From positions 10,491-74,490 of the forward strand of contig JADMJV010000035.1 in NCBI GenBank assembly GCA_018780265.1: 64,000 nt of DNA, given 5' to 3'. The DNA comes from a bacterium (GTDB lineage: Bacteria; Vulcanimicrobiota; Xenobia; Xenobiales; JADMJV01). The notes under the pieces were generated by a model. That model was not told the DNA's origin. It saw only the letters and a program-made list of their open reading frames with translations, and did not search any database. Shown here piece after piece: positions 19,265 through 35,370 of the stretch; the first letter of the stretch is position 1, and every line of letters starts with the position of its first letter. The position numbers and the translations under genes were made by a program.

Positions 19265-21430
19265 ATGGAACTGCAAGGATCAGCGCTGTTCGCCAAATAC
19301 TTGCTAGGGTTGCCGCTACTGGCCAGCCTGCTGACGGCATTTCTGACGCGCCCGTGGCCCCTTGTATCGGCCCTGGTCAGTTGGGCCAGCACCTTCGGCT
19401 GCCTCTTGATTTCGGGGAAAATCCTGGTAGAGCGCATGGTGGCGGGCTCCAATCCTATCTCTTACTGGGCCAGACCCTGGTTGACGGTGGTGACTCCGGG
19501 GGGCTCCTCGGGTCTTAACGGACTCTCGCTGGGATTTATGATCGACAATCTGACCGCCGCCATGCTGGTGATGGTCTGCTTTATCGCTTTGCTCATTCAG
19601 ATTTATAGCTACAGCTATATCAGCACCGAAGTGCATCATTTCCCTACCCAAGGGCCCACCACGGTGTCCCGCTTTTTTGCCTGTCTCAACCTGTTCATCT
19701 TTGCGATGTTGGGACTGGTGCTGTCGGTCAGCACTGTCCAGATCTACATTTTTTGGGAACTGGTGGGGCTGTGCTCCTATCTGCTCATCGGCTTTTGGTT
19801 TTTCAAAACCTCGGCCGCGGTGGCCAGTCGAAAGGCCTTTGTGGTGACAAAGTTCGCCGACCTGGGCTTCTTGCTGGGCGTACTCTGCTTGGGCGCCTCG
19901 GCCAACACTTTCCTGTTCCCGACGCTGCTGACCAAAGACCTCTCCGATGTATCTCCGCTGTTGCTCAATCTGGGGCTGATTCTGCTGTTCTGTGGCGCTA
20001 TCGGAAAAAGCGCCCAATTCCCCCTGCACATCTGGTTGCCCGACGCCATGGAAGGCCCTACGCCGGTCTCGGCGCTTATCCACGCTGCCACCATGGTGGC
20101 AGCCGGCGTCTACCTGGTCGCCCGCACTGCCCCGCTCTTCGCCCAGGCCCCCTACGCCGCCATGGTGGTGGCCTGGATCGGTGCCATCACAGCCCTGGTG
20201 GCCGCCAGCCTGGCTCTGGTGCAAAACGACATCAAAAAAATTCTGGCCTATTCCACCGTTTCTCAGTTAGGTTTCATGGTCACAGCCCTGGGCGCTGGCG
20301 CCACCAACGCTGGCACCTTTCACCTGATCACTCACGCCTTCTTCAAAGCCTTGCTTTTCTTGGGCTCGGGTGCCGTGATTGTGGCCTGCCACAGCAACGA
20401 TATCTGGCGTATGGGCGGACTCAAGAAAGCCCTGCCCGCCACCCATCTGGCCTTCTGGCTGGGCTGTCTGGCCCTGGCTGGCATCCCCCCGTTGGCCGGT
20501 TTCTGGTCCAAGGACGAAATTTTGGGCGGTCTGACTCACCAGATTCCCTTGTTGGCGATTTTGGGTTTCACGGCCTTGCTCACCGCCTTCTATGTTGGCC
20601 GCCTTTATTTCGTGGCCTTTGCTGGCGAATATCGAGGCCAGCGCGAAGATTTGAGCCTGGGCGGTCCGATTCCGCCGGCCGATCTGCCGACCCCCATGTC
20701 GCCCGCCAAAGCCGCCTTTGAAATGCAGCCATTCTGGAGTGAAGAGCGGGTGGAACGGGACGGTCGCGCACTCCCTCCCGAATGCATGGGCTCTCTGAGC
20801 GAGCACGTTCCGCACCACAGCGGTCCTCCTCACGAAGTCTCGCCCATGATGTACATCCCACTCTTGATTTTATCTGTTTTTGCCGTCTTCTTGGGCTTGA
20901 TCGGGGTGCCCGACCATCTGCTGGGCTATCCCAACTACTTCGCCGACTTTGTCTTTCCCAACGCGGAGCATCACCCCGCCAATTGGGCCTTGATGATCAC
21001 CTCGGCGCTGATCGCGGCGGCGGGCTACCTGTTCGCCAAGGCGATGTATGAAAAGCAGCCCGAAGAAGGCGAACGCAAGTTACATTCCTGGCTGGGTCGA
21101 TTCCTGACGGTGCTTCAACAAAAATACTATATGGACCATTTCTGGGCCTGGTGCCTGACTCATCTGGTCTACCTGGACGCAAAAATCGTGGGTCGCTTTG
21201 ACGAAAACAGCGTCGACGGGGCGGTATACGGCGTGGGCAAAGCGACTTACAAATTGGGAAGTCTGGTGCGCCAGGAGCAGACGGGTCAACTGCAGCGCTA
21301 CGCTCTGACCCTGGTGGTCGGATTGATCTTGCTGGTCTTCGCCATAGCCTTGCTCGACCCTGAGTTTGTGCTGCGACACCTGATACCCGGCCTGAATAGC
21401 GGGCCTAAAGTGCCCGGGGGGCAACCATGA
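19265..21430 (+). CDS. nuoL: NADH-quinone oxidoreductase subunit L
   Basis: HIWLPDAMEGPTPVSALIHAATMVAAGVYL plus the long C-terminal extension typical of NuoL. Confidence 0.92.
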   Translation: MELQGSALFAKYLLGLPLLASLLTAFLTRPWPLVSALVSWASTFGCLLISGKILVERMVAGSNPISYWARPWLTVVTPGGSSGLNGLSLGFMIDNLTAAMLVMVCFIALLIQIYSYSYISTEVHHFPTQGPTTVSRFFACLNLFIFAMLGLVLSVSTVQIYIFWELVGLCSYLLIGFWFFKTSAAVASRKAFVVTKFADLGFLLGVLCLGASANTFLFPTLLTKDLSDVSPLLLNLGLILLFCGAIGKSAQFPLHIWLPDAMEGPTPVSALIHAATMVAAGVYLVARTAPLFAQAPYAAMVVAWIGAITALVAASLALVQNDIKKILAYSTVSQLGFMVTALGAGATNAGTFHLITHAFFKALLFLGSGAVIVACHSNDIWRMGGLKKALPATHLAFWLGCLALAGIPPLAGFWSKDEILGGLTHQIPLLAILGFTALLTAFYVGRLYFVAFAGEYRGQREDLSLGGPIPPADLPTPMSPAKAAFEMQPFWSEERVERDGRALPPECMGSLSEHVPHHSGPPHEVSPMMYIPLLILSVFAVFLGLIGVPDHLLGYPNYFADFVFPNAEHHPANWALMITSALIAAAGYLFAKAMYEKQPEEGERKLHSWLGRFLTVLQQKYYMDHFWAWCLTHLVYLDAKIVGRFDENSVDGAVYGVGKATYKLGSLVRQEQTGQLQRYALTLVVGLILLVFAIALLDPEFVLRHLIPGLNSGPKVPGGQP

Positions 21431-22935
21431 CCGTCTCTCCGCTCAGTGCCGCGATCTGGATTCCTGCCCTGATGGCCCTGGTTATCGCCCTGCTGCCTTC
21501 GCGCTGGGTACGCTCCATCCAGGCGCTGGCTATTCTGGGCGGGGGAGCCTCCCTGTTCATCAGCATTCAACTGTTTGCCACCTACTTTCAGCAAAACATG
21601 AGCAAGTTTCAGGAAGTACATAGTGTGCCCTGGCTGACCGACCTTGGGATTCAATATAAGGTGGGAATTGACGGACTGTCGTTGAGTATGATTTTGCTCA
21701 CCGGCCTGGTCAGTTGGGCCGCTCTCTGGATGTCGATCTCGATCGACAAGCGTCAAAAAGAATTCTTTGTGCTCACATTGCTGGCCATCACCGGCGTCTA
21801 CGGCGTATTTGCTTCGATCGATCTGTTCTTCTTCGTGATTTTTTACGAACTGGCTTCGATCCCGATGTATTTCCTGGTGGGCATCTGGGGGTCCGACAAG
21901 CCTGGTTCGGGCCGGCCCATCTACAAGGAGCAGGCTGCCACCAAACTGTTGATCTATCTGCAACTGGGCGGCGGCCTGGTGCTGCTGGGCATTCTGGCCC
22001 TCTATTTCGCCACCGGCGCTCACACCTTCGATTTCCAAGAACTCCAAAAGGTCACCCTGAGCGAGACCCACCAGAAGGTGCTCTTCGTCCTTTTCTTTGT
22101 GGGTTTCGGCATCGAGGCAGGTCTGGTTCCCCTGCATACCTGGCTGCCCGAAGGCCACTCTTCGGCTCCCACTCCCCTCTCAATGCTGCTGGCCGGCGTG
22201 TTGCTGAAAATGGGCGGCTACGGCATCCTGCGCTTCGGTCTGCAACTCACCCCGCTGGGTGCGGCCGCCTTTTTCCCAGCTTTGGCCGCCCTGGGCGGCA
22301 TCAATGTGCTTTACGGAGGGCTTTGCGCATTGCGTCAGAGCGACGTCAAAGTCATGATTGCCTACTCCAGCGTGGGCCACATGGGTATGTTCTTCCTGGG
22401 TATCGGCTGTTTTACGGCCAGCCAACCCTACGCCATGTATGGCCTGCTGGGGGCTCAATTCCAACTCTTTTCTCACGGCGTCATCACAGCCATGCTTTTT
22501 GCCGTGGCCGGGGCCGTTTACGGCCAGACTCACACCCGTGACTTGCGGGGCTGGGGCGGACTGGCCGCCAAAATGCCCGTTTTCACGTTTTTCTATGTGC
22601 TGGCTGCCATGGGCTCGCTGGGGTTGCCTGGCCTCACCGGCTTTTGGGCTGAATTTATGGTCCTCTTTGGCACCTGGGGCTGCATCACTCCGCTGGCGGT
22701 GGCCGCCGTTCCCGGGCTCTTATTAACCACCATGTTCCTGCTGCGCTCGGTGCAATATGGATTCTTTGGCCCGCTCAGTCCCGACCATCTCCACGTGCGC
22801 GACGCCGCCTGGTGGGAAGCTGTGCCCTTGATCACGCTGGCCATGGCCGCCCTCTTTTTTGGCTGTATGCCCATTCTTCTCACCACTCCGGCCGTATCCG
22901 TGCTTTCGACCCTTCTCCCAAGGGCGTTGCCATGA
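21427..22935 (+). CDS. nuoM: NADH-quinone oxidoreductase subunit M
   Basis: LHTWLPEGHSSAPTPLSMLLAGVLLKMGGYG. ATGA overlap with nuoL. Confidence 0.92.
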   Translation: MTVSPLSAAIWIPALMALVIALLPSRWVRSIQALAILGGGASLFISIQLFATYFQQNMSKFQEVHSVPWLTDLGIQYKVGIDGLSLSMILLTGLVSWAALWMSISIDKRQKEFFVLTLLAITGVYGVFASIDLFFFVIFYELASIPMYFLVGIWGSDKPGSGRPIYKEQAATKLLIYLQLGGGLVLLGILALYFATGAHTFDFQELQKVTLSETHQKVLFVLFFVGFGIEAGLVPLHTWLPEGHSSAPTPLSMLLAGVLLKMGGYGILRFGLQLTPLGAAAFFPALAALGGINVLYGGLCALRQSDVKVMIAYSSVGHMGMFFLGIGCFTASQPYAMYGLLGAQFQLFSHGVITAMLFAVAGAVYGQTHTRDLRGWGGLAAKMPVFTFFYVLAAMGSLGLPGLTGFWAEFMVLFGTWGCITPLAVAAVPGLLLTTMFLLRSVQYGFFGPLSPDHLHVRDAAWWEAVPLITLAMAALFFGCMPILLTTPAVSVLSTLLPRALP

Positions 22936-24437
22936 CCGCCAGTTGGCTGCGCACGTTCCACCAGATGACGCCGGAGGCGGCAGTTGTGCTCACCCTGGTC
23001 TGGGTGGTTCTGAGCGACCTCTTTCTGCCACGCAACCCGCGCCATTTGTGGATCCAGAGCTTCATAGGGCTATGCGGCGCCACCATCGCAGCCATCCTGC
23101 TCTTTCAGGTGGACACGCCCGCCCAGGCTTTGATGCCATCCATCCAATGGGTCTTTCTCAGTTCGCCCCTGACGAGCGCCGTCAAGGCAGTGATTTTGCT
23201 GTTGGCCACGCTATCGGTGGCCTTCGCCCATCGTAGCTTTGGGGAAGCCGAGCGAAATGCCGGTGAATTTTACGCCCTCATCCTTTTCTCCACCCTGGGT
23301 GCGCTGCTGTGCGTTTCCTCGCAGGACTTGCTGATGTTCTTTGTCAGCTTTGAACTGCTTTCGCTGCCCCTCTACATGCTGTGTGCCTTTCGCCGCTATC
23401 ATTCCCCGTCCGCCGAGGCGGGCTTGAAATATTTCATCAACGGTGCCCTCAGTTCGGCCATCCTGCTGTATGGGATCAGTTGGATGTACGGCAGCCTGGG
23501 GACCACCCATCTACCTACCATAGCCATGCGCTATGCCGAATTGGAGCACGCACCAGCCGGCCTCTACCTGGGCTGTCTGATGATTTTAGCAGGCCTGGCC
23601 TTCAAGGTGGCGGCGGCCCCCTTTCATAACTGGGCCCCCGATGTCTACTCCGGAGCCCCACCGGCCGTGTCTGTATTTCTCTCGACCGCGCCCAAGGTGG
23701 CCATGGTCGGTTTCATCGTGCGTCTGTTCTGGGGCTTCTTAGACGGCTCCGGCCTCTACTTCCAACTGGGCACCGACTGGGTCTTTATCTTCGTCATTCT
23801 CTCGGTGGTTTCCATGTTCGTTGGCAACCTGAGCGCCCTGCCCCAGACGGACGTGCGCAAGATCCTGGCCTATTCGGGCATCGCTCAAATCGGCTACCTC
23901 TTCCTGGGTCTGGCTGCCTGCTCGCAGGCCAATCCGCACCCGGACAAGGCCCTCGCGGCCGTGCTATTCTACGTGACCGTCTACGGTATCTCCAATTTGG
24001 GGGCCTGGGCCGTGCTGACGGTGGTAGGTCGCGAACGCGAAAACCTGGACTTCAGTAGCCTCAAAGGCCTGCACCAGCGCAACCCGCTGTTAGCGGCCTG
24101 CCTGGCCCTATGCCTGATGTCTCTGGCGGGCGTTCCGCCACTGTCAGGATTTACCGGTAAATTTTACCTTTTCCGAGCGATCTACGAGAGCAAACTCCCC
24201 TTTTTGGTGGTCTTGGGTATCCTGAATTCGGTCATTTCTCTCTTTTATTACTTTAAAGTGTTAAAGGCGGCCTATTTTGTGGAAGCAGAAGAGGGCGGCC
24301 CTGCTTTCCCGGTGTTGTCTGCTGCGCAACAACTGGCGGTTCAGGTGTGTCTCTGGTCCAACCTCGTGCTGGGCCTGTGGCCCGGTTTGATTCGCGAATT
24401 TGACCGGGTGGCCAGTACTTTGACCCAAGGAAACTAA
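22932..24437 (+). CDS. nuoN: NADH-quinone oxidoreductase subunit N
   Basis: PFHNWAPDVYSGAPPAVSVFLSTAPKVA. I place the start at ATG 22932 (ATGA overlap with the nuoM stop) rather than the track start 22812, which lies inside nuoM. Confidence 0.9.
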   Translation: MTASWLRTFHQMTPEAAVVLTLVWVVLSDLFLPRNPRHLWIQSFIGLCGATIAAILLFQVDTPAQALMPSIQWVFLSSPLTSAVKAVILLLATLSVAFAHRSFGEAERNAGEFYALILFSTLGALLCVSSQDLLMFFVSFELLSLPLYMLCAFRRYHSPSAEAGLKYFINGALSSAILLYGISWMYGSLGTTHLPTIAMRYAELEHAPAGLYLGCLMILAGLAFKVAAAPFHNWAPDVYSGAPPAVSVFLSTAPKVAMVGFIVRLFWGFLDGSGLYFQLGTDWVFIFVILSVVSMFVGNLSALPQTDVRKILAYSGIAQIGYLFLGLAACSQANPHPDKALAAVLFYVTVYGISNLGAWAVLTVVGRERENLDFSSLKGLHQRNPLLAACLALCLMSLAGVPPLSGFTGKFYLFRAIYESKLPFLVVLGILNSVISLFYYFKVLKAAYFVEAEEGGPAFPVLSAAQQLAVQVCLWSNLVLGLWPGLIREFDRVASTLTQGN

Positions 24438-24852: not shown

Positions 24853-25551
24853 CTAGATCAATTCCTGGACGGTCTGGTTCTCGATGTCAAAGCTCATCGG
24901 TCCCACCTGCGGCTTGGTGCGCGTGGTCAATTCAAGCTTTATCAGGCACCCTTTGGCATTGTCAAACCACATCGTCCCATCGGAAGCCGTTTTGACATTG
25001 CTGGCGCCGCGGCCATCGGGCAGGGGCACCTGAAACTCGACCGGCTCCGAAGTAAAGCTGATGCGCACGCAATCGGTGCCTTTCATCTCTTCATCGCACT
25101 CGTAGGTATAAATATACTTCATGGTCACGGGCGTGGGCACGTTGGGCAACTGGGTTTGAGTCTGCCCCTCCCAGGTGGCGCCAGCGGTCACCTCAGCTTC
25201 TGGAAAAGCGAACGCGTTGCCCTGATTGGGGCCAGAAACTTCGTGCACTTCGCCGCGCGCCCCCAGATGCTGATAAATCACACTGCGAGCGCCGTCAGGA
25301 ATGCCGGGACCAGGCTTGGGCACGGTGACACTGACCACATGGGCGGTGCCATCATCCAGAGCGCGAATGACGTTTTGATCCAGCCGGGCCTCAAATCCGC
25401 CCTTTTCTTCTCCAACCGTTTTGCCTTCCTGACTGGCTGTCTGGCTCGATTTGCTAACCAATGCATAGTTGAGCACCTGATCGGTGGAAAACTTGAGACG
25501 TAAGACCTGACCCATAGCTGCTGAATCTCCTTTTTGGCAAGTGGCCAGCAC
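24853..25551 (-). CDS. hypothetical protein
   Basis: 232-aa ORF with beta-rich composition. The likely start is the internal MGQVLRL near 25515. Confidence 0.55.
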   Translation of the reverse strand: MLATCQKGDSAAMGQVLRLKFSTDQVLNYALVSKSSQTASQEGKTVGEEKGGFEARLDQNVIRALDDGTAHVVSVTVPKPGPGIPDGARSVIYQHLGARGEVHEVSGPNQGNAFAFPEAEVTAGATWEGQTQTQLPNVPTPVTMKYIYTYECDEEMKGTDCVRISFTSEPVEFQVPLPDGRGASNVKTASDGTMWFDNAKGCLIKLELTTRTKPQVGPMSFDIENQTVQELI

Positions 25552-25768: not shown

Positions 25769-26257
25769 ATGGCCTGGGTTCCTCTGGGGATTTTGACTGT
25801 CTTGTTGGCGGCCACGCCCGTGGGTTATGTGCCCGTGCCAGGCACGGCGGCCTTTTTGACCCTGGCCCATGTGCCGGTCATTCTCGGGGGTATTCTGTGC
25901 GGGCCCATCATTGGCCTGATTCTCGGGCTGCTCTTCGGTATGGGCAACTATTTCCACATTCCACCCCATGATCCGGTTGTGCAGATCGTGCCCCGGGTGC
26001 TTTGCGGGTTTGTGGCCGCAGTGGTCTTTTGGGCGGCCCGTCGCCACGGCAATCCCGAATCGCAATTGACTGTCGGGTCCATTTCCGCTGCCCTGGCTGG
26101 TAGCCTGACCAACACTCTGGGAGTGACCCTACTGGCTGCCTTGAAGGGACTGATGCCCGGGGAGGAAGTGGTTGGCGTCGTCCTCTTTCACGGTGCTCCT
26201 GAAGCCCTGCTGGCCGTGATGGTGGCCCTACCTTTCGCCGTGTCTCGCCATCGCTAG
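25769..26257 (+). CDS. ECF-transporter S-component-like small membrane protein
   Basis: MAWVPLGILTVLLA...LTLAHVPVILGGILCGPIIGLILGLLFG, about 6 TM helices. I use the ATG at 25769 because the track start 25541 adds a non-membrane, low-quality N-terminus. Confidence 0.55.
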   Translation: MAWVPLGILTVLLAATPVGYVPVPGTAAFLTLAHVPVILGGILCGPIIGLILGLLFGMGNYFHIPPHDPVVQIVPRVLCGFVAAVVFWAARRHGNPESQLTVGSISAALAGSLTNTLGVTLLAALKGLMPGEEVVGVVLFHGAPEALLAVMVALPFAVSRHR

Positions 26258-26285: not shown

Positions 26286-27563
26286 TTGGAAAACTCCCCG
26301 GGAATGGAAGTCAGCAATAGTGAATTGCACGAAGTAAGTCGCCTTTATCGGGAGCACATCAGTCCCGACCTGGGCCGCCTCATGAAGTTTGGCGGTCCCG
26401 GGAGCCTGGAAGTCAGCGCCCAGGATTGTCGAGTGGTCGACCATCTGGGCCGCAGTTATCTGGATTTGGCCGGCGGCTACGGGGTCTTCAGCCTGGGCCA
26501 TGCCCACCCCGAAGTGGTGGCGGCCGTGCAGGCCCAGCTTCAGCAGTTGCCTCTCTCCAGCCGAGTAATGCTCAGTCCTCCCCAGGCCTATCTGGCTCGC
26601 GACCTGGCAGCTACCGCACCGGGTCGGCTACAATACTGCTTTTTTTGCAACAGCGGCGCCGAAGCTGTAGAGGGTGCCCTCAAGTTGGCCCGTCTGGCCA
26701 CAGCCAGACCCGCCCTGGTGGCCTGCCACAACAGCTATCACGGCAAAACGATGGGGGCCCTCTCGGTGACCGGCCGCGAGGGCTACCGTCAACCCTTCGA
26801 GCCCCTGATCCCGCAAGTTCACTTTGTCGATTTTGGAGACGTCGGCCAACTCAAAGCGTCTCTCACCTCGCAGGTGGCCGCCTTCATTGTAGAGCCCATC
26901 CAGGGCGAGGGCGGCATTTACGTGGCCCCTCCCGGCTACCTGGAAACGGCCCGACAACTGTGCACGGAGAGGGGCGTGCTGCTGATCGCCGACGAGGTGC
27001 AATGTGGACTGGGGCGCAGCGGGCGAATGTTTGCCGTGGAACATTGGGGAGTGCAGCCTGACATACTGGTGCTGGCCAAGGCGCTCGGAGGCGGCGTGGT
27101 GCCAGCCGGTGCCATTGTTGGCACCCCCGAGGTGTGGAAGGCCCTGAAAGGTCGCCCCTTGCTGCACACCAGCACCTTTGGCGGCAACCCCCTGGCCTGC
27201 GTGGCCGGACGCAAGACTCTGGAAATATTGCAGCGCGACCAGCTGCCGGCCAAAGCCGAGCGCGATGGCAACTGGCTGATCGGCCAGCTCAGCAAGCTGG
27301 CCGCAGAATTTCCCCAACTCATCGCCCAGGTCAGAGGGTTGGGCCTGATGATCGGTGTAGAGATGGCCCGAGAGGAATTTGCCGGCTCGTTGATCAACGA
27401 GTTGCTCAAGCGACATCTGCTGGCCGTTTACACTCTCAATCAACCCAAGGTGATTCGACTGGAGCCCCCTCTGACCATATCGTCCGACGATCTTCAACAA
27501 GCCGTAGACTGCTGGCGCCAGGCCCTGGCGGCCACGGCTGAACGGTTTTTGGTGGTGCGCTGA
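26286..27563 (+). CDS. class III (omega-type) PLP aminotransferase, ArgD/PatA-like
   Basis: GGYGVFSLGHAHPEVV, FCNSGAEAVEGALKLAR, IADEVQCGLGRSGRMFA and PDILVLAKALGGG (PLP lysine). TTG at 26286 or ATG at 26304. Confidence 0.9.
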   Translation: MENSPGMEVSNSELHEVSRLYREHISPDLGRLMKFGGPGSLEVSAQDCRVVDHLGRSYLDLAGGYGVFSLGHAHPEVVAAVQAQLQQLPLSSRVMLSPPQAYLARDLAATAPGRLQYCFFCNSGAEAVEGALKLARLATARPALVACHNSYHGKTMGALSVTGREGYRQPFEPLIPQVHFVDFGDVGQLKASLTSQVAAFIVEPIQGEGGIYVAPPGYLETARQLCTERGVLLIADEVQCGLGRSGRMFAVEHWGVQPDILVLAKALGGGVVPAGAIVGTPEVWKALKGRPLLHTSTFGGNPLACVAGRKTLEILQRDQLPAKAERDGNWLIGQLSKLAAEFPQLIAQVRGLGLMIGVEMAREEFAGSLINELLKRHLLAVYTLNQPKVIRLEPPLTISSDDLQQAVDCWRQALAATAERFLVVR

Positions 27564-28000
27564 TGGTTTACATCGAGCGCTCGATCGTGATCCAGGGCCC
27601 CATTCAAGAGGTTTATGAGTTGGCGAAAGACATGGAGCGCTACCCGGAGTTCATGCCTGACGTGGAGAGCGTGAAGGTCATTGAGCGCGAGTCTCATCGC
27701 ACTGTCACCGAGTGGGAGACCAGCGTGGACGGCACCCCCATCCTGTGGACCGAGGAAGACCGCTTCTACGACGAAAAATTTGTCATCGAATACCAACTCA
27801 TCGAGGGCGACCTGGATAAGTTCGAAGGCGAGTGGCGCTTTGTGGAAAGGGAAGGGGGCACTCAAGTGACCCTCACGGTGGACTACGATTTCGGGATTCC
27901 CGAGCTCACCAACCTGATTGGCCCCACCCTCCAGCAAAAAGTTGGCGAGAACTCCGAAATGATGCTTGAGGGCATGAAACGAAGAATCGAAGGGACATGA
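27563..28000 (+). CDS. SRPBCC (START/RatA/cyclase-dehydrase) family protein
   Basis: IERSIVIQGPIQEVYELAKDMERYPEFMPDVESVKVIERE..., 145 aa. The start overlaps the upstream stop. Confidence 0.75.
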   Translation: MVYIERSIVIQGPIQEVYELAKDMERYPEFMPDVESVKVIERESHRTVTEWETSVDGTPILWTEEDRFYDEKFVIEYQLIEGDLDKFEGEWRFVEREGGTQVTLTVDYDFGIPELTNLIGPTLQQKVGENSEMMLEGMKRRIEGT

Positions 28001-29094
28001 ATCGATTCGGCTTTCTGATCCACCCGCTGGGTATGCAAGACGTGGTCCGCTACGCCCCCAATGCCCGAGGCAAGCGCGAGGCGCTGGTCAGCAAGATTTT
28101 AGAATGGATGCCGCCCTACCAGGCGTCGCTGGTGACGGGCGTTCGGTCCAAGGCGGTCGACACGCCTATCGAGGGCCATTTTATCACGGTGCCCATGTTG
28201 CCTCGCCAGTTTCTCGAGAAAGACCGCGACTGGGTTTTTGAAAAGGTGTTGCGAGGTGCCCTGCTGGCTCAGAGCTGTGGAGCCCAGATCGTGGGGCTGG
28301 GTGGCTACACCTCCATGGTAGGCGAGGCGGGCAAGGCCATTGCCGAGCGACTCGACGTGGGCGTCACCAGCGGCAACTCCTATACCGTGGTGGCGGCCAT
28401 GGAGGCCACCCTGGCCGCGGCTCGAGCCATGGATCTGGACCTGACGCGCAGCAATGTAGCCGTGGTGGGAGCGACCGGCGCCATCGGGGCAGTCTGTTCT
28501 CGGCTGCTCTCTCGTCAGGTGGCCCGCCTTTCGCTGGTGGCTCGCAGTCGTTCGCGCCTGCAGACCCTGGCTGAAAAAATTCACGCCGAAGGCCGCTGCG
28601 CCGTATCTATCGACAACGATCTGGAGCGCGGCATTCGCGAGGCGGATGTCATCGTGACCGCCACCGCTTCGGGAGGCAGCATCATCCGGGCCGACTCGCT
28701 CAAGCCCGGGGTGGTGATCTGCGATGTGGCTCTACCTCACGATGTCTGCCGGGAGGTCGCCCGCACGCGTCCCGACGTGCTGGTGGTAGAAGGCGGCGTG
28801 ATCGAGGTGCCTGGCGAAGTCGAGTTCAATTTTGACTTCGGCTACCCCGCGCGCCATTCGCTGGCCTGCATGGCCGAAACCATGATCCTCGCGCTAGAGG
28901 GCCGCTTTGAAGACTACAGTCTGGGTAGGGGCTTGTCGCTGGAAAAGGTTCAGGAGATCAGCCGGTTGGCGCAACGCCACGGCTTCCGCACGGCTGGACT
29001 GCGAGCCAACGACGAGGCCGTCACCAGCGACAAAATCGAAGAGGTTAAGTCACGTATTAAGGATCATCGGCGAGGCCTTAGCGTAATCCGATGA
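27997..29094 (+). CDS. acyl-ACP reductase (AAR)-family NAD(P)-dependent reductase homologue
   Basis: Colinear with the cyanobacterial AAR as I remember it. FGFLIHP matches FGLIGH, GLGGYTSMVGE matches ALGGFTSII, and VTSGNSYTVVAA matches FTTGNTHTAYVI. VAVVGATGAIGAVCSRLL matches VAVVGATGDIGSAVCRWL, and SLACMAETMILALEG matches MFACFAEAMLLEFEG, with the catalytic Cys conserved. Confidence 0.75.
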   Translation: MNRFGFLIHPLGMQDVVRYAPNARGKREALVSKILEWMPPYQASLVTGVRSKAVDTPIEGHFITVPMLPRQFLEKDRDWVFEKVLRGALLAQSCGAQIVGLGGYTSMVGEAGKAIAERLDVGVTSGNSYTVVAAMEATLAAARAMDLDLTRSNVAVVGATGAIGAVCSRLLSRQVARLSLVARSRSRLQTLAEKIHAEGRCAVSIDNDLERGIREADVIVTATASGGSIIRADSLKPGVVICDVALPHDVCREVARTRPDVLVVEGGVIEVPGEVEFNFDFGYPARHSLACMAETMILALEGRFEDYSLGRGLSLEKVQEISRLAQRHGFRTAGLRANDEAVTSDKIEEVKSRIKDHRRGLSVIR

Positions 29095-29999
29095 AGCGGG
29101 TGGTCAGCGTCAGTCTGGGCTCGTCCACGCGCGACCACCGGGCCGAAACCACCCTGTTAGGAGTTCCGTTCCAGGTGGAACGGCGGGGCGTGGACGGCCA
29201 GTTCAAGGCCGCCCAGGCCCTGTTGCGCGAGTTAGATGGGCAAGTCGACGCCATCGGTCTGGGCGGGGTGGACATCTACCTGCGCTGCCGCGACCGCCGC
29301 TACGCCCTGCGCGATGGGTTGCGCCTGCAGCAATGCGTGACCAAGACGCCCGTGGTCGACGGCAGCGGCCTGAAGGACACCCTGGAGGCCAGCGTGGTCC
29401 ACCAGTTGGCCAAGAATTTCCCGCTGGCCGGGGCCAAAGTATTGGTGGTTTCGGCCCTGGACCGCTTCGGCCTGGCCGAAGCACTGGTGCAGGTAGGCGC
29501 CCAATGCACCTTTGGGGACAAGATGTTTGCCCTCGACCTGGATCAGCCCATTTACAGCCTCGACGAACTGCAGGAACAGGCCGACAAACTGCTGCCCGAG
29601 CTGTGCAAACTGCCCATCAGCATGCTTTATCCGGTGGGTCCCAAGCAGATGACCATCGAGGCCAAACCATTGACCTCCGGCTACATGCAAGAGGCCGACT
29701 GGATTTGCGGCGATTTTCATTTGATCCGCCGACGTCTACCCGACCATCTTCCCGGCAAGGTGATTCTTACCAATACAGTTACTCTCGACGACATCGAGCA
29801 ACTTCGGTCGCGAGGGGCGGCCACTTTGATAACGACCACCCCGGAGTATCAAGGGCGCTCGTTTGGCACCAACGTGCTCGAGGCCATGCTGGTGGCCCTG
29901 CTGGAGAAACCGTGGCAAGCGGTGGACAGGCAGGATTATCTGCGACTATTGCGAGATCTTCAGTGGAAACCTCGCATTTTAACGCTGCAATCGGAGTAA
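29091..29999 (+). CDS. conserved hypothetical protein (function unknown)
   Basis: 302-aa ORF with ATGA overlap upstream. It starts MKRVVSVSLGSSTRDHRAE. I have a vague memory of quinate 5-dehydrogenase labels on similar proteins but cannot verify this. Confidence 0.6.
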   Translation: MKRVVSVSLGSSTRDHRAETTLLGVPFQVERRGVDGQFKAAQALLRELDGQVDAIGLGGVDIYLRCRDRRYALRDGLRLQQCVTKTPVVDGSGLKDTLEASVVHQLAKNFPLAGAKVLVVSALDRFGLAEALVQVGAQCTFGDKMFALDLDQPIYSLDELQEQADKLLPELCKLPISMLYPVGPKQMTIEAKPLTSGYMQEADWICGDFHLIRRRLPDHLPGKVILTNTVTLDDIEQLRSRGAATLITTTPEYQGRSFGTNVLEAMLVALLEKPWQAVDRQDYLRLLRDLQWKPRILTLQSE

Positions 30000-30002
30000 C
30001 GC

Positions 30003-31499
30003 ATGTCCAATCCCGAAGAAGAAGGCTCCAGCCTTGATGACCTGATCGCCTTTCGGCGCAAGCATCTGGAAAATTTCAAGGCGGCCGGCCTCAAACCGTG
30101 GGGGCAGCGCTATCATCGTGATCGCACCGCCGATTCGATCCACCAGGAGTTTGCCGAACTCACCTCCGAGCAGGAAGGCCCTCATGTCAGCGTGGCCGGT
30201 CGGGTCACTGCCCACCGCCATCAGGGCAAGGCCACCTTCATCGACGTGACCGACGTGAGCGGACGTATCCAGTGCTACTTTCGCCAGAACGACCTGGAAG
30301 AGAGCTATGCCCTGCTGAGCAATGTCGACATCGGCGACTTTCTGGGCATCAAAGGCAAGGTCTTTCGCACCCGCCGCGGTGAGTTGTCGCTGCACGTCAC
30401 CGAGTGGACGCCCCTGTCCAAGTCGCTGCGCCCCCCACCCGAGAAGTTTCACGGCCTGAAAGACCAGGAGACCAAGTATCGGCAACGCTACGTAGACCTG
30501 CTCTCGAGCAGCGAAGTGCGCCAGACCTTTATCTTGCGCAGCAAAATTCTGGCCGCCATGCGCAGCTACTTCGATGGACTGGGCTTTATCGAAGTGGAAA
30601 CGCCCACCATGACCTCGCTGGCCGGCGGCGCCTCGGCGCGGCCTTTCATCACCCATCACAACGCCCTGGATATGCAACTCTACCTGCGCATTGCCACCGA
30701 GCTTTACCTCAAGCGCTGCATTGTGGGCGGCCTGGAGAAAGTCTACGAGATCGGACGCATCTTCCGCAACGAGGGCATCTCCACGCGCCACAATCCGGAA
30801 TTCACCATGCTCGAACTCTACGAGGCCTACTCGGACTACGAAGGCATGATGGAACTGACGGAAGGGCTCTTCGCCCACCTCTGCGACAAGGTGTTGGGCA
30901 CGGAAACGGTGGTTTTCGACGGCAAAGAGGTCAATCTGCGTCCGCCCTTCCGGCGCGCCAGCATGGACTCTCTGCTGCGCGAGCATGCCGGGCTGGGTTT
31001 GCACGAACTGCGAGATTCGGACACCTGCTTTGCCAAGGCCCGCGAACTCAAGCTGGGATTGGATGCCAAAACGACCACGGTGGCTCACGCTATCGACAAG
31101 ATTGTCGACGAGACGGTGCTGCCCCACCTGGTGCAGCCGACCTTCATCACCGACTACCCCATCGAACTCTCGCCCCTGGCCAAGCGCAAAGACGACGACC
31201 CCAATCTGACCTACCGATTTGAACTGTTCGTGTGCGGATCGGAGATCGCCAACGCCTTCTCCGAACTCAACGACCCCGACGATCAGCGTGGTCGCTTTGA
31301 GTCGCAGCAGGCCCAAAAAGACATCGACGAAGAGGCCCACCCCCTAGACGAAGATTTCTTGCTGGCCCTGGAGCACGGCATGCCACCCACCGGCGGTATC
31401 GGTATCGGCGTTGACCGCCTGGTCATGCTGTTGACGGGCAAAACCTCTATCCGTGATGTAGTGCTCTTCCCGCTGCTCAGACCGCGAGCCGATGGCTGA
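30003..31499 (+). CDS. lysS: lysine--tRNA ligase (class II)
   Basis: OB-fold N-terminus and class II motifs FRNEGISTRHNPEFTMLELYEAYSDY and GGIGIGVDRLVMLLTG. Confidence 0.95.
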   Translation: MSNPEEEGSSLDDLIAFRRKHLENFKAAGLKPWGQRYHRDRTADSIHQEFAELTSEQEGPHVSVAGRVTAHRHQGKATFIDVTDVSGRIQCYFRQNDLEESYALLSNVDIGDFLGIKGKVFRTRRGELSLHVTEWTPLSKSLRPPPEKFHGLKDQETKYRQRYVDLLSSSEVRQTFILRSKILAAMRSYFDGLGFIEVETPTMTSLAGGASARPFITHHNALDMQLYLRIATELYLKRCIVGGLEKVYEIGRIFRNEGISTRHNPEFTMLELYEAYSDYEGMMELTEGLFAHLCDKVLGTETVVFDGKEVNLRPPFRRASMDSLLREHAGLGLHELRDSDTCFAKARELKLGLDAKTTTVAHAIDKIVDETVLPHLVQPTFITDYPIELSPLAKRKDDDPNLTYRFELFVCGSEIANAFSELNDPDDQRGRFESQQAQKDIDEEAHPLDEDFLLALEHGMPPTGGIGIGVDRLVMLLTGKTSIRDVVLFPLLRPRADG

Positions 31500-32679
31500 A
31501 ATGAGGGCCTGGGTCGAGGTCGACCTGGGAGCGCTGCGCAACAACGTGCGCCGGCTCTCCAAGTGGGTCGCCCCGGCCCGTTTTATCGCTGTAGTCAAGT
31601 CCGATGCCTACGGCCACGGCATGATCCCCGTGGCCCGCACGGCCCTGGAAGAAGGCGCCTGGGCCCTGGCCGTGGTCAACATCGACGAAGCTCTGCAACT
31701 GCGCCAGGCCGGCTTTACCTGTCCGGTGATCGTGGTGGGACCCATCTTCCCCGGCGAAATCACGGCCGCCGTGCAGGCCCAGATCAGCCTGCCGGTCTAC
31801 AGTCAGGAAACTCTGTCCGAAGTGGCAGCGGCGGCCGTCGAAACGGGCCAGACGGCCCGCATTCATGTGAAGTTTGACACGGGACTGGGTCGGTTAGCCC
31901 TGCCCTACGACCATGCTTACGAGTTTCTCAGTCTGGTCAAAGCCACTCCCGGTCTCAAAATGGAGGGCCTCTACAGTCATCTGGCCGACGCCGAAGGGCT
32001 GGACCAGCGCTATACCCTGCAGCAGTTCAATCGCTTTCAAGAGGTGCAGCAGGTGGCCGAGAGCCTGGGCATGCGCCCGGAAGTGGCCCACCTGTCGGCC
32101 AGCGCCGCCAGCATGCTGTTGCAGCCGGCCCGGCTCGACGCCGTGCGCGTAGGCATCGCCATGTATGGCTTGTGGCCGGCCGATGAAACCCGGCTGTTAC
32201 TGCTCTCGCGGGGCCACAATCTGTTTCAAGAACTCAATCTGCATTTCAGTTCAGGGCTCACCCCCGAGCTCGACGATCTGCTGCAGCCCGTCCTCAGCTA
32301 CAAAACCCGCATCGCCCAACTCAAGGAAGTGCCGGACCACAGCTCGATCGGCTACGGTTGCACCTTCCAAACCCAGCGTCCCACCCGGCTGGCCATTCTG
32401 CCTGTAGGCTATTATGAGGGCTATGACCGCCACCTTTCCAATTGCGGCGAAGTTCTGATTCGGGGACGGCGAGCGCGCGTGCTGGGCAGGGTGTGCATGA
32501 ATGTGCTCACCGTCGACGTGACCGATATCCCCGACGTCACCCTGGAGGATGAGGTGGTGCTGCTGGGCCGTCAGGGCGGCCAACGGGTGACCGCCGAGGA
32601 GTGGGCCCGCCGCATCGGCAGCATCAACTACGAGGTGGTCACCCGCATCCCGGCTCATATACCCCGGATCTACCCATGA
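31492..32679 (+). CDS. alr: alanine racemase
   Basis: AVVKSDAYGHG (PLP lysine), and C-terminal GYGCTF...ILPVGYYEGYDR...VCMNVLTVDV. Confidence 0.92.
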   Translation: MAEMRAWVEVDLGALRNNVRRLSKWVAPARFIAVVKSDAYGHGMIPVARTALEEGAWALAVVNIDEALQLRQAGFTCPVIVVGPIFPGEITAAVQAQISLPVYSQETLSEVAAAAVETGQTARIHVKFDTGLGRLALPYDHAYEFLSLVKATPGLKMEGLYSHLADAEGLDQRYTLQQFNRFQEVQQVAESLGMRPEVAHLSASAASMLLQPARLDAVRVGIAMYGLWPADETRLLLLSRGHNLFQELNLHFSSGLTPELDDLLQPVLSYKTRIAQLKEVPDHSSIGYGCTFQTQRPTRLAILPVGYYEGYDRHLSNCGEVLIRGRRARVLGRVCMNVLTVDVTDIPDVTLEDEVVLLGRQGGQRVTAEEWARRIGSINYEVVTRIPAHIPRIYP

Positions 32680-33458: not shown

Positions 33459-34709
33459 GTGTATCTCAATGCTATACGGCTGAAGAACTTCCGGTGTTTT
33501 GAAGACCTTGAGCTGAAGTTGAATCCGCGAATGACGGTGCTCATTGGCGATAACGCTTCGGGCAAAACCACCGTTTTAGAAGCCATTGCCATCGCGTTAA
33601 GCGGGTATCTTGGCTCTCTGCCTGGCATGGCGGGGCGGCATATTCACAAAGGCGATGTTCTGCAGTATGTCCACGAGCATGAGGGCCTCGTGACCTATGA
33701 GGCGGATTTTCCTGCGGAAATCCACGCGCAGGGCTTTTTTCAAGGGAATTCCGTGGAGTGGTCACGGGCCCTTACCCGCCCCGATGGTCGTACTACCCGA
33801 GGACCCCACTGGAACCGCTGGACAAAACCGCTGATCGAGGCAGTCACCAAGGGTTGGCCGTGGGAGTTGCCGGTCGTCGCATACTACGGCACCCGCCGGG
33901 TTTGGCTGCAGAAGCGGGCGACCCAGGCCAAACGGGGTGTCGGTTCGCGCTACGACGGCTATATCGATGTGCTCGAGCCTGAGTCGAACCAACGACTGAT
34001 GACTGAATGGATACTCCAGCAGACCATGATCGAGTTGCAGCAGCGACGCAAGAGTGTGCACCTTGCGGCCATCGAGGCGGCCGTCTGCCGCGGTGTACGA
34101 GCCCGCAGGTTCGTATTCAATCTCAAATACAACTGCCTGGAACTGCATTTGGGTGAAGGCGAGGTTGTTCCGTTCGAACAGCTCAGTGATGGTTACCGCA
34201 ACATGGTGGCTCTGGTGGCCGACATCGCCTGGCGCGCCTGCGTGCTGAACCCCCATCTTGGTGCCGAGGTCGCTGAAACCGTCTCGGGCACGGTGTTGAT
34301 CGACGAGATCGACCTGCATTTGCACCCCCGCTGGCAGCGGCGGGTGCTGGTGGACCTGAAGAGTGCCTTTCCTAACCTCCAGTTTGTCGTGACCACTCAT
34401 TCCCCTCAAGTATTGGCTACGGCGCTGAGAGCCGAGGTGCGCCTTCTGGCGGGCCGGGCCATCCAGGCAACGCCTTTTGTCGAGGGCCGGGATGCCAACG
34501 GGCTGCTGCGGGACGCCTTTGATGTCGAGGAACGCCCGGCGGAGACGGAGGCTGCGATTCAGGAACTGGCGGAGCTGATTGAGGGCGAGAGATACGAGCA
34601 GGCCCGAAGAAAGCTCAGTAGCCTGACCGCCACTTTGGGTCCAGATGACCCGGCCATTATTCGTGCCAATTTCGAACTCGAGTTGTCGCCCGACGATGCT
34701 TCGCTTTAG
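33459..34709 (+). CDS. AAA_15/AAA_21-type ABC-like ATPase (PtuA-like)
   Basis: IRLKNFRCFEDLEL...LIGDNASGKTTVLEAI (Walker A), LSDGYRNMVALVADI (signature-like), VLIDEIDLHLHPRWQ (Walker B) and VVTTHSPQVL (H-loop). GTG start. Confidence 0.85.
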   Translation: MYLNAIRLKNFRCFEDLELKLNPRMTVLIGDNASGKTTVLEAIAIALSGYLGSLPGMAGRHIHKGDVLQYVHEHEGLVTYEADFPAEIHAQGFFQGNSVEWSRALTRPDGRTTRGPHWNRWTKPLIEAVTKGWPWELPVVAYYGTRRVWLQKRATQAKRGVGSRYDGYIDVLEPESNQRLMTEWILQQTMIELQQRRKSVHLAAIEAAVCRGVRARRFVFNLKYNCLELHLGEGEVVPFEQLSDGYRNMVALVADIAWRACVLNPHLGAEVAETVSGTVLIDEIDLHLHPRWQRRVLVDLKSAFPNLQFVVTTHSPQVLATALRAEVRLLAGRAIQATPFVEGRDANGLLRDAFDVEERPAETEAAIQELAELIEGERYEQARRKLSSLTATLGPDDPAIIRANFELELSPDDASL

Positions 34710-35370
34710 GAAACAAAAGCAGCCGGAGACGCTGACTCAACTTCAAGCCACTCCTGACAGCGATTGGCGAAGCAGTCGGGAAATACGAGAGCAGTTGCTT
34801 GCGGATCAGGGGTTTCTATGTGCCTACTGTCAGCGGCGGATTCCCTGTGCGATGGCGGAGTCGTACTACCCGGGCATGCACGTTGAACACTGGCTTGCGC
34901 AGTCCACTGACACGACAGCCTCAATGCAATGGTCCAACCTGCTGGGGGTGTGCCCGGGGGAGCCGCCGCTTGAGGCTGGCACCCCTCACGGTCCTAACCA
35001 TTGCGACCGATCTCGCGGACATCGGGAACTGTTCCTCCATCCCATCGAAGGTCGCGGCGCCGATCCGCGGACACATATAACGTATAACCACGAAGGCCGG
35101 ATTGGCCCCAGCGCTGGCGGGAACGCGGACGCCGTGCGCCGCGACATTGCCAGCCTCAACCTGAATCACTGGCGGCTACGACTGATCCGACGAGAGCTTC
35201 GCGATTTCTTGCGGGAGCGCCTCACGCGGCGGGGGTTCTCACTGGCTACTCTTCGCGAACATTACCGCGAGTATTCTCCGCGACAGGACCAGCATAGCCA
35301 CCCGTTGTGCGAAGTGGCACGCTGCTACTTGCGAAGCTGGGCGCGCAAGAAGGGGGCCTCACTTGAGTGA
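34696..35370 (+). CDS. HNH-type nuclease, TIGR02646-like (PtuB-like)
   Basis: CAYCQRRI...MHVEHWLAQS...WSNLLGVCPG...NHCDRSRG (CxxC, H-x-E-H, N, HC). The ATG at 34696 overlaps the ATPase gene by 14 nt. Confidence 0.75.
   Translation: MLRFRKQKQPETLTQLQATPDSDWRSSREIREQLLADQGFLCAYCQRRIPCAMAESYYPGMHVEHWLAQSTDTTASMQWSNLLGVCPGEPPLEAGTPHGPNHCDRSRGHRELFLHPIEGRGADPRTHITYNHEGRIGPSAGGNADAVRRDIASLNLNHWRLRLIRRELRDFLRERLTRRGFSLATLREHYREYSPRQDQHSHPLCEVARCYLRSWARKKGASLE

What the first reader, a model, noticed from the sequence alone, without database searches (positions are those of the whole stretch)
26286..29999. Acyl-ACP-reductase-family gene coupled to an omega-aminotransferase and a lipid-binding-fold protein instead of an aldehyde-deformylating oxygenase
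ORF 27997..29094 is colinear with the cyanobacterial alkane-pathway acyl-ACP reductase, including the nucleotide-binding VAVVGATGAIGAVC and the catalytic-Cys region SLACMAETMILALEG. In cyanobacteria AAR is paired with ADO. Here it is translationally coupled by 1-4 nt overlaps to three other genes: a class III aminotransferase upstream, an SRPBCC (hydrophobic-ligand pocket) protein, and a conserved 302-aa unknown downstream. Reductase plus transaminase is the chemistry needed to turn an activated acyl group into an aldehyde and then a primary amine. This suggests an uncharacterised fatty-amine or amino-lipid-type pathway. The operon continues without a break into lysS and alr.
Basis: partly seen in the sequence, partly recalled or inferred. 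Interest (0 to 1): 0.55.

Follow-up and report, generated by a model that had tools for sequence, protein, structure and literature searches.

The report
Candidate alkylamine membrane-lipid gene set
Four tightly packed housekeeping genes probably turn an activated fatty acid into a long-chain amine, and their relatives are good candidates for the still unidentified genes behind the unusual three-tailed membrane lipids of Deinococcus, Thermus and some anaerobes.

Summary
The four overlapping genes encode a class III aminotransferase, an SRPBCC protein, an AAR-fold thioester reductase (Cys291 and GxxGxxG intact) and an unnamed 302-aa protein. No ADO was found in the genome.

The enzyme pair is the unfused equivalent of PigE/TamH, so thioester-to-aldehyde-to-amine chemistry is known. 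The distribution is not ordinary. The reductase is mostly single-copy, in 150/151 Vulcanimicrobiota genomes. All 61 Deinococcota genomes sampled carry the reductase, the 302-aa protein and one aminotransferase of the same clade. In six Deinococcota copies examined the reductase is fused to a PlsY-family membrane domain. Neomoorella thermoacetica carries reductase plus the 302-aa gene.

Thermus, D. radiodurans and Moorella make N-glyceroyl-alkylamine phospholipids, whose third-chain enzymes are unidentified. Best reading (about 0.6): this is the alkylamine supply for those lipids. The 302-aa protein is a Cys-less AAR-fold paralogue of unknown activity. No lipid or enzyme data exist for this genome.

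The scan found this operon before in at least five other genomes; one note has the same lipid idea. New variant of a known kind; interest 0.62.

The parts
26304..27563 (+). Class III PLP omega-aminotransferase (AT); an upstream TTG at 26286 is the alternative start. Proposed: fatty aldehyde to alkylamine.
   Evidence: PF00202 E 1e-107. PatA model 452 bits, below cut-off 612; PigE C-terminal half 414 bits. The genome's PatA above cut-off lies on another contig (624.6 bits). Tree: clade with Thermus-type, Bacillota and AT-reductase-fusion ATs, which also holds PatA.
27563..28000 (+). SRPBCC/START-fold protein (SRP). Proposed carrier for the hydrophobic aldehyde or amine.
   Evidence: PF03364 E 1.8e-23. 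Best PDB match is Thermus TTHA0849, 2d4r, E 3.7e-24. Present in 150/151 phylum genomes. Fused to the reductase in several relatives.
27997..29094 (+). AAR-fold NAD(P)H thioester reductase (RED) with Cys291. Proposed: acyl-ACP or acyl-CoA to aldehyde.
   Evidence: phmmer: PigE 4ppm E 2.5e-42, AAR 6jzq E 4e-28. AF2 pLDDT 95.7; Foldseek 6jzy TM 0.78, E 1e-25. Single copy in this genome; 150/151 phylum genomes.
29091..29999 (+). Conserved 302-aa protein (UNK; databases call it 'quinate 5-dehydrogenase'). Probable AAR-fold paralogue with Asn261 where the reductase has Cys; activity unknown.
   Evidence: No Pfam, NCBIfam or PDB sequence hit. AF2 pLDDT 93. Best structural match AAR 6jzq Z 13.2, rmsd 4.2, 245 aligned; then TAD Z 11.7. 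Motif order matches RED, but the profile match is not significant. No conserved Cys and many invariant polar residues. Often fused to RED.
30003..32679 (+). lysS and alr. Probably co-transcribed, but not part of the pathway.
   Evidence: Pfam. lysS adjacency is the usual phylum context, normally with greA in between; alr follows in only a few close relatives.

Best explanation
The genes form a housekeeping pathway that makes a long-chain primary alkylamine for membrane lipids, most likely the N-glyceroyl-alkylamine phospho(glyco)lipids known from Deinococcus, Thermus and Moorella. Step 1 (inferred from fold, motifs and homology): RED takes an acyl chain from acyl-ACP or acyl-CoA onto Cys291 and reduces it with NAD(P)H to a fatty aldehyde. 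Step 2 (inferred, weaker): SRP shields or hands on the hydrophobic intermediate. Step 3 (inferred from homology to PigE and TamH): the PLP aminotransferase converts the aldehyde to the amine. Step 4 (speculative): UNK, an AAR-fold protein without the catalytic Cys, acts at a linked later step, such as attaching the amine to a glyceroyl unit or a redox step on that head group. Shown here: anatomy, conservation, fusions, fold and distribution. Not shown: any activity, substrate or product. I put the amine-forming chemistry alone at about 0.8 and the lipid destination at about 0.6.
For: (1) Both enzymes match the two halves of PigE. TamH does this chemistry on C12-ACP (PMC9594044). (2) Fusions link all four genes: UNK-RED, SRP-RED and AT-RED. 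(3) Housekeeping pattern: RED and SRP in 150/151 phylum genomes, including 1.9-2.5 Mb ones. (4) Among 14 named control genomes the AAR family rings only in Synechococcus, Thermus thermophilus and Deinococcus radiodurans. The latter two make alkylamine phosphoglycolipids (PMC3398001), and the Thermus enzymes for the third chain are unidentified (PMC9636437). (5) Deinococcota: RED 61/61 and UNK 61/61. The operon-type AT is in 28 genomes; a diverged AT of the same tree clade, whose best NCBIfam hit is PigE, is in exactly the other 33. (6) Six Deinococcota REDs examined are fused to an N-terminal PlsY-like membrane domain (PF02660 above cut-off in the four scanned), with the Cys kept. (7) Neomoorella thermoacetica has adjacent UNK-RED, and the species makes N-glyceroyl alkylamines (PMC13274423). 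(8) In a 121-genome sample centred on Thermanaeromonas, 84 of 85 RED-positive genomes have UNK. (9) Lipid-binding or acyl-handling neighbours recur: SCP2 beside UNK or RED and an acyl-CoA thioesterase beside the Thermus-type AT.
Against: There is no lipid evidence for this phylum. The only isolate has unidentified polar lipids, and no phosphoglycolipid was named (PMC9758169). The closest solved relative of AT is putrescine aminotransferase, and PatA falls in the same broad clade. Apo TTHA0849 has a cavity of only about 18 cubic angstroms (PMC13525633), and SRP was not found in 33/61 Deinococcota. In Deinococcota the genes are scattered, so their linkage rests on co-occurrence among kin. The Deinococcus AT lies on a long branch in a FastTree tree. 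Ten genomes keep UNK without a recognisable RED. The gene set is much wider than the taxa with published alkylamine lipids. The AT was not searched in the Moorella genome, which is not held, and the strain match to the lipid paper was not checked.
Confidence: 0.6

Rival explanations
1. Same fatty aldehyde or amine chemistry, but feeding another envelope lipid (long-chain 1,2-diols, ether or other amide lipids), possibly different in each phylum.
For: PlsY fusion and SRPBCC/SCP2 partners point to lipid but not to a head group. Thermus also has long-chain diols (reference title in PMC3398001). UNK-RED fusions are common in Chloroflexota.
Against: An AT accompanies RED in this operon, in all 61 Deinococcota genomes and in most RED-positive Bacillota (59 separate, plus about 14 with long ORFs of the AT-RED fusion type, of 85). 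Diol or ether synthesis would not need nitrogen.
Confidence: 0.17
2. The pair acts on a short polar thioester (diamine, amino-acid or cofactor precursor) rather than a fatty acyl chain.
For: AT is most like putrescine aminotransferase PatA. UNK has many invariant polar residues. An amino-acid-permease gene follows UNK in some Bacillota loci.
Against: A PatA above cut-off exists elsewhere in this genome. The characterised relatives of RED cited here (AAR, TamH) act on long acyl chains. The lipid-binding partners and the PlsY fusion are unexplained by this reading.
Confidence: 0.12
3. The pathway runs the other way: it degrades or recycles alkylamines (amine to aldehyde to acyl-thioester).
For: Transamination is reversible (established chemistry). 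UNK sits with SCP2 and a permease in some loci.
Against: Near-universal single-copy retention, even in reduced genomes, does not look like a catabolic option. The characterised family members work reductively (PMC9594044).
Confidence: 0.06
4. A secondary-metabolite module like the prodigiosin or tambjamine branches.
For: Best matches are to PigE.
Against: No biosynthetic cluster in the flanking ORFs examined; neighbours are lysS, alr and elsewhere dusB and greA. Present in 150/151 genomes.
Confidence: 0.03
5. A cyanobacterial-type alkane pathway with an unlinked or alternative aldehyde-cleaving enzyme.
For: The RED fold is closest to AAR.
Against: No ADO in the genome. The TIGR04058 score is 125 against a cut-off of 450. 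An aminotransferase is coupled instead.
Confidence: 0.02

Closest known systems
PigE (Serratia prodigiosin MAP branch; NF053554; PDB 4ppm)
   Same: RED matches its N-terminal thioester-reductase domain and AT matches its C-terminal aminotransferase.
   Different: Here there are two separate genes, in AT-RED order, with SRP and UNK added. No pig cluster nearby; housekeeping distribution; family cut-off not met.
TamH (Pseudoalteromonas tunicata; PMC9594044) and TabE/TabA (Streptomyces; 10.1101/2025.08.11.669332)
   Same: Acyl-ACP to aldehyde to fatty amine. TamH uses an AAR-like domain with GxxGxxG and Cys plus a class III transaminase.
   Different: TamH is a fusion in a secondary-metabolite cluster with its own ACP. 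TabE is described as lacking the usual AAR signatures. There is no ACP or ligase gene in this operon. Direct sequence comparison with TamH was not run.
Cyanobacterial acyl-ACP reductase AAR (TIGR04058; PDB 6jzy/6jzq)
   Same: Same fold (TM 0.78), catalytic Cys position and Rossmann motif.
   Different: About 28% identity, cut-off not met, no ADO partner, and coupled to an aminotransferase.
Terminal amidation domain TAD (CarI; 10.1101/2024.10.28.620694)
   Same: An AAR-fold relative proposed to form amides; second-best structural match of UNK (Z 11.7, rmsd 4.8, 253 aligned).
   Different: TAD has an invariant Cys and mostly ends NRPS modules. UNK has no conserved Cys and stands alone or is fused to RED.
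N-glyceroyl-alkylamine phosphoglycolipids of Thermus, Deinococcus and Moorella (PMC3398001, PMC9636437, PMC13274423)
   Same: They need a long-chain primary amine. T. thermophilus and D. radiodurans carry an AAR-family match, N. thermoacetica carries UNK-RED, and all 61 Deinococcota sampled carry RED, UNK and a clade AT.
   Different: No genes are assigned in the papers found, and the lipids are not reported from Vulcanimicrobiota.

Membership tests
Cyanobacterial AAR (TIGR04058) | Score above curated cut-off | tested here: not met
   125.5 against 449.7 bits
Cyanobacterial AAR (TIGR04058) | AAR fold, GxxGxxG and catalytic Cys | tested here: met
   TM 0.78 to 6jzy; G158/G161/G164 and C291, with Cys in 59/63 homologues
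Cyanobacterial AAR (TIGR04058) | ADO partner in the genome | tested here: not met
   TIGR04059: no match in a 97%-complete genome; the Synechococcus control rings
Cyanobacterial AAR (TIGR04058) | Reduces long-chain acyl-ACP to aldehyde | not testable with these tools
   Needs an assay
PigE (NF053554) | Reductase and aminotransferase in one polypeptide, above cut-off | tested here: not met
   Separate ORFs; 236 and 414 bits against 850
PigE (NF053554) | Homology of both domains | tested here: met
   Profile positions 50-359 (RED) and 374-740 (AT)
TamH-type AT-TR fusion | Single AT-TR polypeptide in a tambjamine cluster | tested here: not met
   Separate genes in a housekeeping context; such fusions occur only among relatives
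Putrescine aminotransferase PatA (NF008570) | Score above cut-off | tested here: not met
   452 against 612 bits; another gene on contig C110 scores 624.6
Shikimate/quinate dehydrogenase (database name of RED) | Full-length AroE match and fold | tested here: not met
   TIGR00507 27.5 against 200 bits, Rossmann part only; TM 0.39 or less to shikimate dehydrogenases
Quinate 5-dehydrogenase (database name of UNK) | Sequence-family match or closest fold | tested here: inconclusive
   No Pfam or NCBIfam hit; shikimate DH Z 9.3 ranks below AAR Z 13.2; activity untested
Terminal amidation domain (for UNK) | Invariant active-site Cys | tested here: not met
   Invariant Asn261 at the aligned position; several homologues have no Cys at all
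SRPBCC/START | Pfam match above gathering score | tested here: met
   PF03364 83.6 against 23.4 bits
SRPBCC/START | Binds a hydrophobic ligand | not testable with these tools
   The Thermus relative has a tiny apo cavity (PMC13525633)
N-glyceroyl-alkylamine lipid pathway | Genes present in known producers | tested here: met
   T. thermophilus and D. radiodurans ring for the AAR family; 61/61 Deinococcota have RED, UNK and a clade AT; N. thermoacetica has UNK-RED
N-glyceroyl-alkylamine lipid pathway | The organism makes the lipid, and the genes are required for it | not testable with these tools
   V. alpinus polar lipids are unidentified; no genetics found

The most novel reading that the evidence does not exclude
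These genes are the widespread, still unassigned biosynthetic core of N-glyceroyl-alkylamine membrane lipids. UNK is a new enzyme family on the AAR fold that lost the catalytic Cys and performs the glyceramide-forming or a linked step. The whole Vulcanimicrobiota phylum and many Bacillota and other lineages build three-tailed alkylamine lipids so far described mainly from Deinococcota.
Probability: 0.35. Interest if true: 0.8.

Novelty: new variant of a known kind. Interest (0 to 1): 0.62.

Why it matters
The alkylamine phosphoglycolipids of Deinococcus have been known since 1985 (reference in PMC3398001). A 2022 paper still states that the Thermus enzymes for the third chain are unidentified (PMC9636437). 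This analysis names three concrete, testable candidates in two genetically tractable, harmless organisms: the PlsY-reductase fusion (annotatable only as a glycerol-3-phosphate acyltransferase), a PigE-like aminotransferase and the misnamed 'quinate 5-dehydrogenase'. If right, it gives a genomic marker for these lipids across uncultured phyla, which matters for lipid biomarkers. It would also suggest that the fatty-amine chemistry of prodigiosin and tambjamine enzymes has a primary-metabolism counterpart, and supply stand-alone enzymes for making fatty amines. The chemistry itself is known, which caps the novelty.

Tried and rejected
1. Complex prediction of RED with UNK gave no verdict (score 0.00). 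It is not used as evidence either way.
2. The profile-profile comparison of UNK with RED is not significant (probability under 1%, E 0.07-0.15). The paralogy rests on the structure search and motif order.
3. Foldseek on the UNK model gave only weak, mixed hits, with TAD on top.
4. The promoter and terminator scan was at chance level.
5. Plasmid and viral collections held no UNK. The plasmid RED hits were distant and, where annotated, PigE/TamH-type aminotransferase genes.
7. Three papers were not held: Bale 2025, Nakabayashi 2005 and Huang & Anderson 1991. The full list of Bacillota producers could therefore not be matched to genomes.
8. Five searches bearing on gene assignment found no paper assigning genes to alkylamine lipids. 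The library lacks most subscription papers.
Closeness to them rests on HMM and fold scores.
10. Rejected: functional coupling to lysS/alr, identity of AT with PatA, and the 'shikimate dehydrogenase' name for RED.
11. The apparent absence of an AT in Deinococcus was resolved.
Full report
Abbreviations: AT, aminotransferase; SRP, SRPBCC protein; RED, reductase; UNK, the 302-aa protein.

OBSERVATION. The four ORFs, their overlaps (1, 4 and 4 nt) and both quoted motifs are in the sequence. lysS follows after 3 nt and alr overlaps lysS. The closest loci come from Vulcanimicrobiota (Eremiobacterota) records at 73-88% identity, so the window belongs to that phylum. RED, SRP and UNK are single-copy in the genome. 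The ADO family is not found in this 97%-complete assembly.

WHAT THE PROTEINS ARE. AT is a class III PLP aminotransferase. It scores below the PatA cut-off, and a separate gene in the genome passes that cut-off, so AT is not the putrescine enzyme. SRP is an SRPBCC protein whose best solved relative is Thermus TTHA0849. RED matches the PigE reductase domain best by sequence (148 bits, against 102 for AAR). Its model superposes on AAR with TM 0.78, against 0.42 or less for shikimate and amino-acid dehydrogenases. Cys291 is kept in 59 of 63 homologues. AT and RED cover the two halves of the PigE profile.

THE UNKNOWN PROTEIN. UNK has no family or PDB sequence match. Its confident model (pLDDT 93) matches AAR best of 48,161 chains (Z 13.2, rmsd 4.2, 245 aligned), then the terminal amidation domain (Z 11.7). 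Its motifs line up in order with those of RED, with invariant Asn261 where RED has Cys291 and an altered nucleotide-binding loop. That profile alignment is not statistically significant. UNK has no conserved Cys but many invariant polar residues, including S6, S8, R14, D90, K95, D124, R125, D143, D208 and R256. This suggests an active site of its own (inference).

CONSERVATION IN THE PHYLUM. RED and SRP each occur in 150 of 151 phylum genomes, and the same single genome lacks both. These tallies include the unpublished genome G116; no claim depends on it (149/150 without it). The order AT-SRP-RED-UNK holds in all 30 closest loci and in 18 of 20 phylum-wide loci, usually between dusB and greA-lysS. 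The link to lysS is therefore inherited position, and alr follows only in a few close relatives. Among 150 diverse RED relatives there are many UNK-RED fusions and several SRP-RED and AT-RED fusions. These fusions tie all four genes to one process.

OUTSIDE THE PHYLUM: DEINOCOCCOTA. In 14 named control genomes the AAR family rings only in Synechococcus, T. thermophilus and D. radiodurans. In 61 Deinococcota genomes, centred on Deinococcus hopiensis, RED and UNK are found in all; two UNK matches are partial. SRP and the operon-type AT occur in the same 28 genomes. I take these to be Thermus relatives, from genome size and the TTHA0849-like SRP. The other 33 carry a diverged AT that falls in the same tree clade, has PigE as best NCBIfam hit, and is exactly complementary in distribution. 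In the six Deinococcota copies examined, RED is the C-terminal part of a 553-560 aa protein. Its N-terminus is a PlsY-like membrane domain (PF02660 above cut-off in the four scanned), and the Cys is intact. From my own knowledge of PlsY, its catalytic motifs look degenerate, so the domain may be an anchor. The open frames around the best RED match in the other Deinococcota genomes are similarly long. In Deinococcota the genes are not clustered.

OUTSIDE THE PHYLUM: BACILLOTA. Neomoorella thermoacetica has dusB-HTH-UNK-RED-greA-lysS. In a 121-genome sample centred on Thermanaeromonas, 84 genomes have RED and UNK, 10 have UNK only, 1 has RED only and 26 have neither. Of 63 genomes with a high-scoring AT, 59 have RED. 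About 14 more have RED in roughly 900-aa ORFs, two of which were confirmed as AT-RED fusions. AT-SRP pairs lie elsewhere in some genomes. Kin are not independent, so no statistic is claimed.

MECHANISM. TamH converts C12-ACP to the aldehyde with an AAR-like domain and then to the amine with a class III transaminase (PMC9594044), and TabE/TabA do the same as separate proteins. By homology RED and AT should do likewise (inferred, about 0.8). The destination is inferred from distribution. Thermus and D. radiodurans build phosphoglycolipids in which an alkylamine is amide-linked to glycerate (PMC3398001). M. thermoacetica has N-glyceroyl alkylamines (PMC13274423). The Thermus enzymes for this third chain are stated to be unidentified (PMC9636437). 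A near-universal, single-copy amine-making pair, fused to a phospholipid-synthesis domain in these producers, is the natural candidate (about 0.6). SRP as a carrier is plausible but weakened by the tiny cavity of TTHA0849 and its absence from 33 genomes. UNK persists where RED is lost or degenerate, and it sometimes sits with an SCP2 protein and a permease. That fits a step downstream of, or independent from, amine synthesis. Amide formation or a head-group redox step are guesses.

LIMITS. No activity, product or mutant is known. The only cultured member of the phylum has unidentified polar lipids (PMC9758169).

COMPARISON AND NOVELTY. It works like PigE/TamH but is not a member of either family (unfused, cut-offs not met). 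It is not a cyanobacterial AAR, and RED is not a shikimate dehydrogenase. I found no paper describing the four-gene set or assigning genes to alkylamine lipids. Earlier notes of this scan describe the same operon in at least five other genomes, one with the same lipid idea and one with the PlsY fusion. I had stated the lipid hypothesis before the first look-up, and tested it here rather than relying on those notes.

VERDICT. A real, conserved operon and a new variant of a known kind. Interest is 0.62, because it makes a long-open question in lipid biosynthesis directly testable in Thermus and Deinococcus.

Noticed in passing
L204, L205, L208, L212, L216, L219 (Deinococcota): The reductase is fused to an N-terminal PlsY-family membrane domain whose catalytic motifs look degenerate; such proteins are likely to be annotated simply as glycerol-3-phosphate acyltransferases.
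   Followed up: yes
L071-L073, L075, L083, L085, L101, L120, L126, L138 (metagenome loci, apparently Bacillota): UNK is followed by a 117-aa SCP2-like gene and an amino-acid-permease gene, with no reductase nearby. Desulfofundulus luciae (L154) has the reductase without UNK at dusB-greA.
   Followed up: partly
L160-L169: Ten genomes keep UNK without a recognisable reductase. In L163 and L167 the next gene looks like a degenerate reductase by position and N-terminus; in others it is absent.
   Followed up: partly
L004-L011 and L144-L148 (UBP7-type genomes): These genomes have both a well-conserved stand-alone UNK and a separate fusion of a diverged UNK-like domain with the reductase.
   Followed up: partly
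P0132, P0137, P0238, P0245: Unusual reductase fusions: PilZ-SRPBCC-reductase (possible c-di-GMP control), adenylation-carrier-AT-reductase, and GNAT-AT-reductase.
   Followed up: no
L133:5457-6023, L152, L153, L155, L177: A conserved HTH gene of about 175-190 aa precedes UNK, the reductase or the AT-reductase fusion in Bacillota; it may regulate the pathway.
   Followed up: no
L210, L214, L218; L209, L217: The Thermus-type AT lies between an acyl-CoA thioesterase gene and an RNase R-like gene. The Thermus-type UNK directly precedes what read as efp-accB-accC (named from N-terminal sequence only).
   Followed up: partly
L221 (G324) and five other Deinococcota genomes: A second, more diverged reductase copy is present.
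   Followed up: no
window 25769-26257 (+) and 24853-25551 (-): An ECF S-component-like membrane gene lies 46 nt upstream of the AT start, with a divergent 232-aa unknown gene beyond it. Both are adjacent only in close relatives.
   Followed up: partly
window 31492-32679: The alanine racemase has about 40 extra residues between its Pfam N- and C-terminal domains (residues 228-266).
   Followed up: no
window 33459-35370: An ATPase plus HNH-like gene pair, possibly a Septu-like defence cassette; also noted earlier in the scan.
   Followed up: no
window 19265-24437: Three nuoL/M/N-like genes stand without the rest of the nuo operon; also noted earlier in the scan.
   Followed up: no
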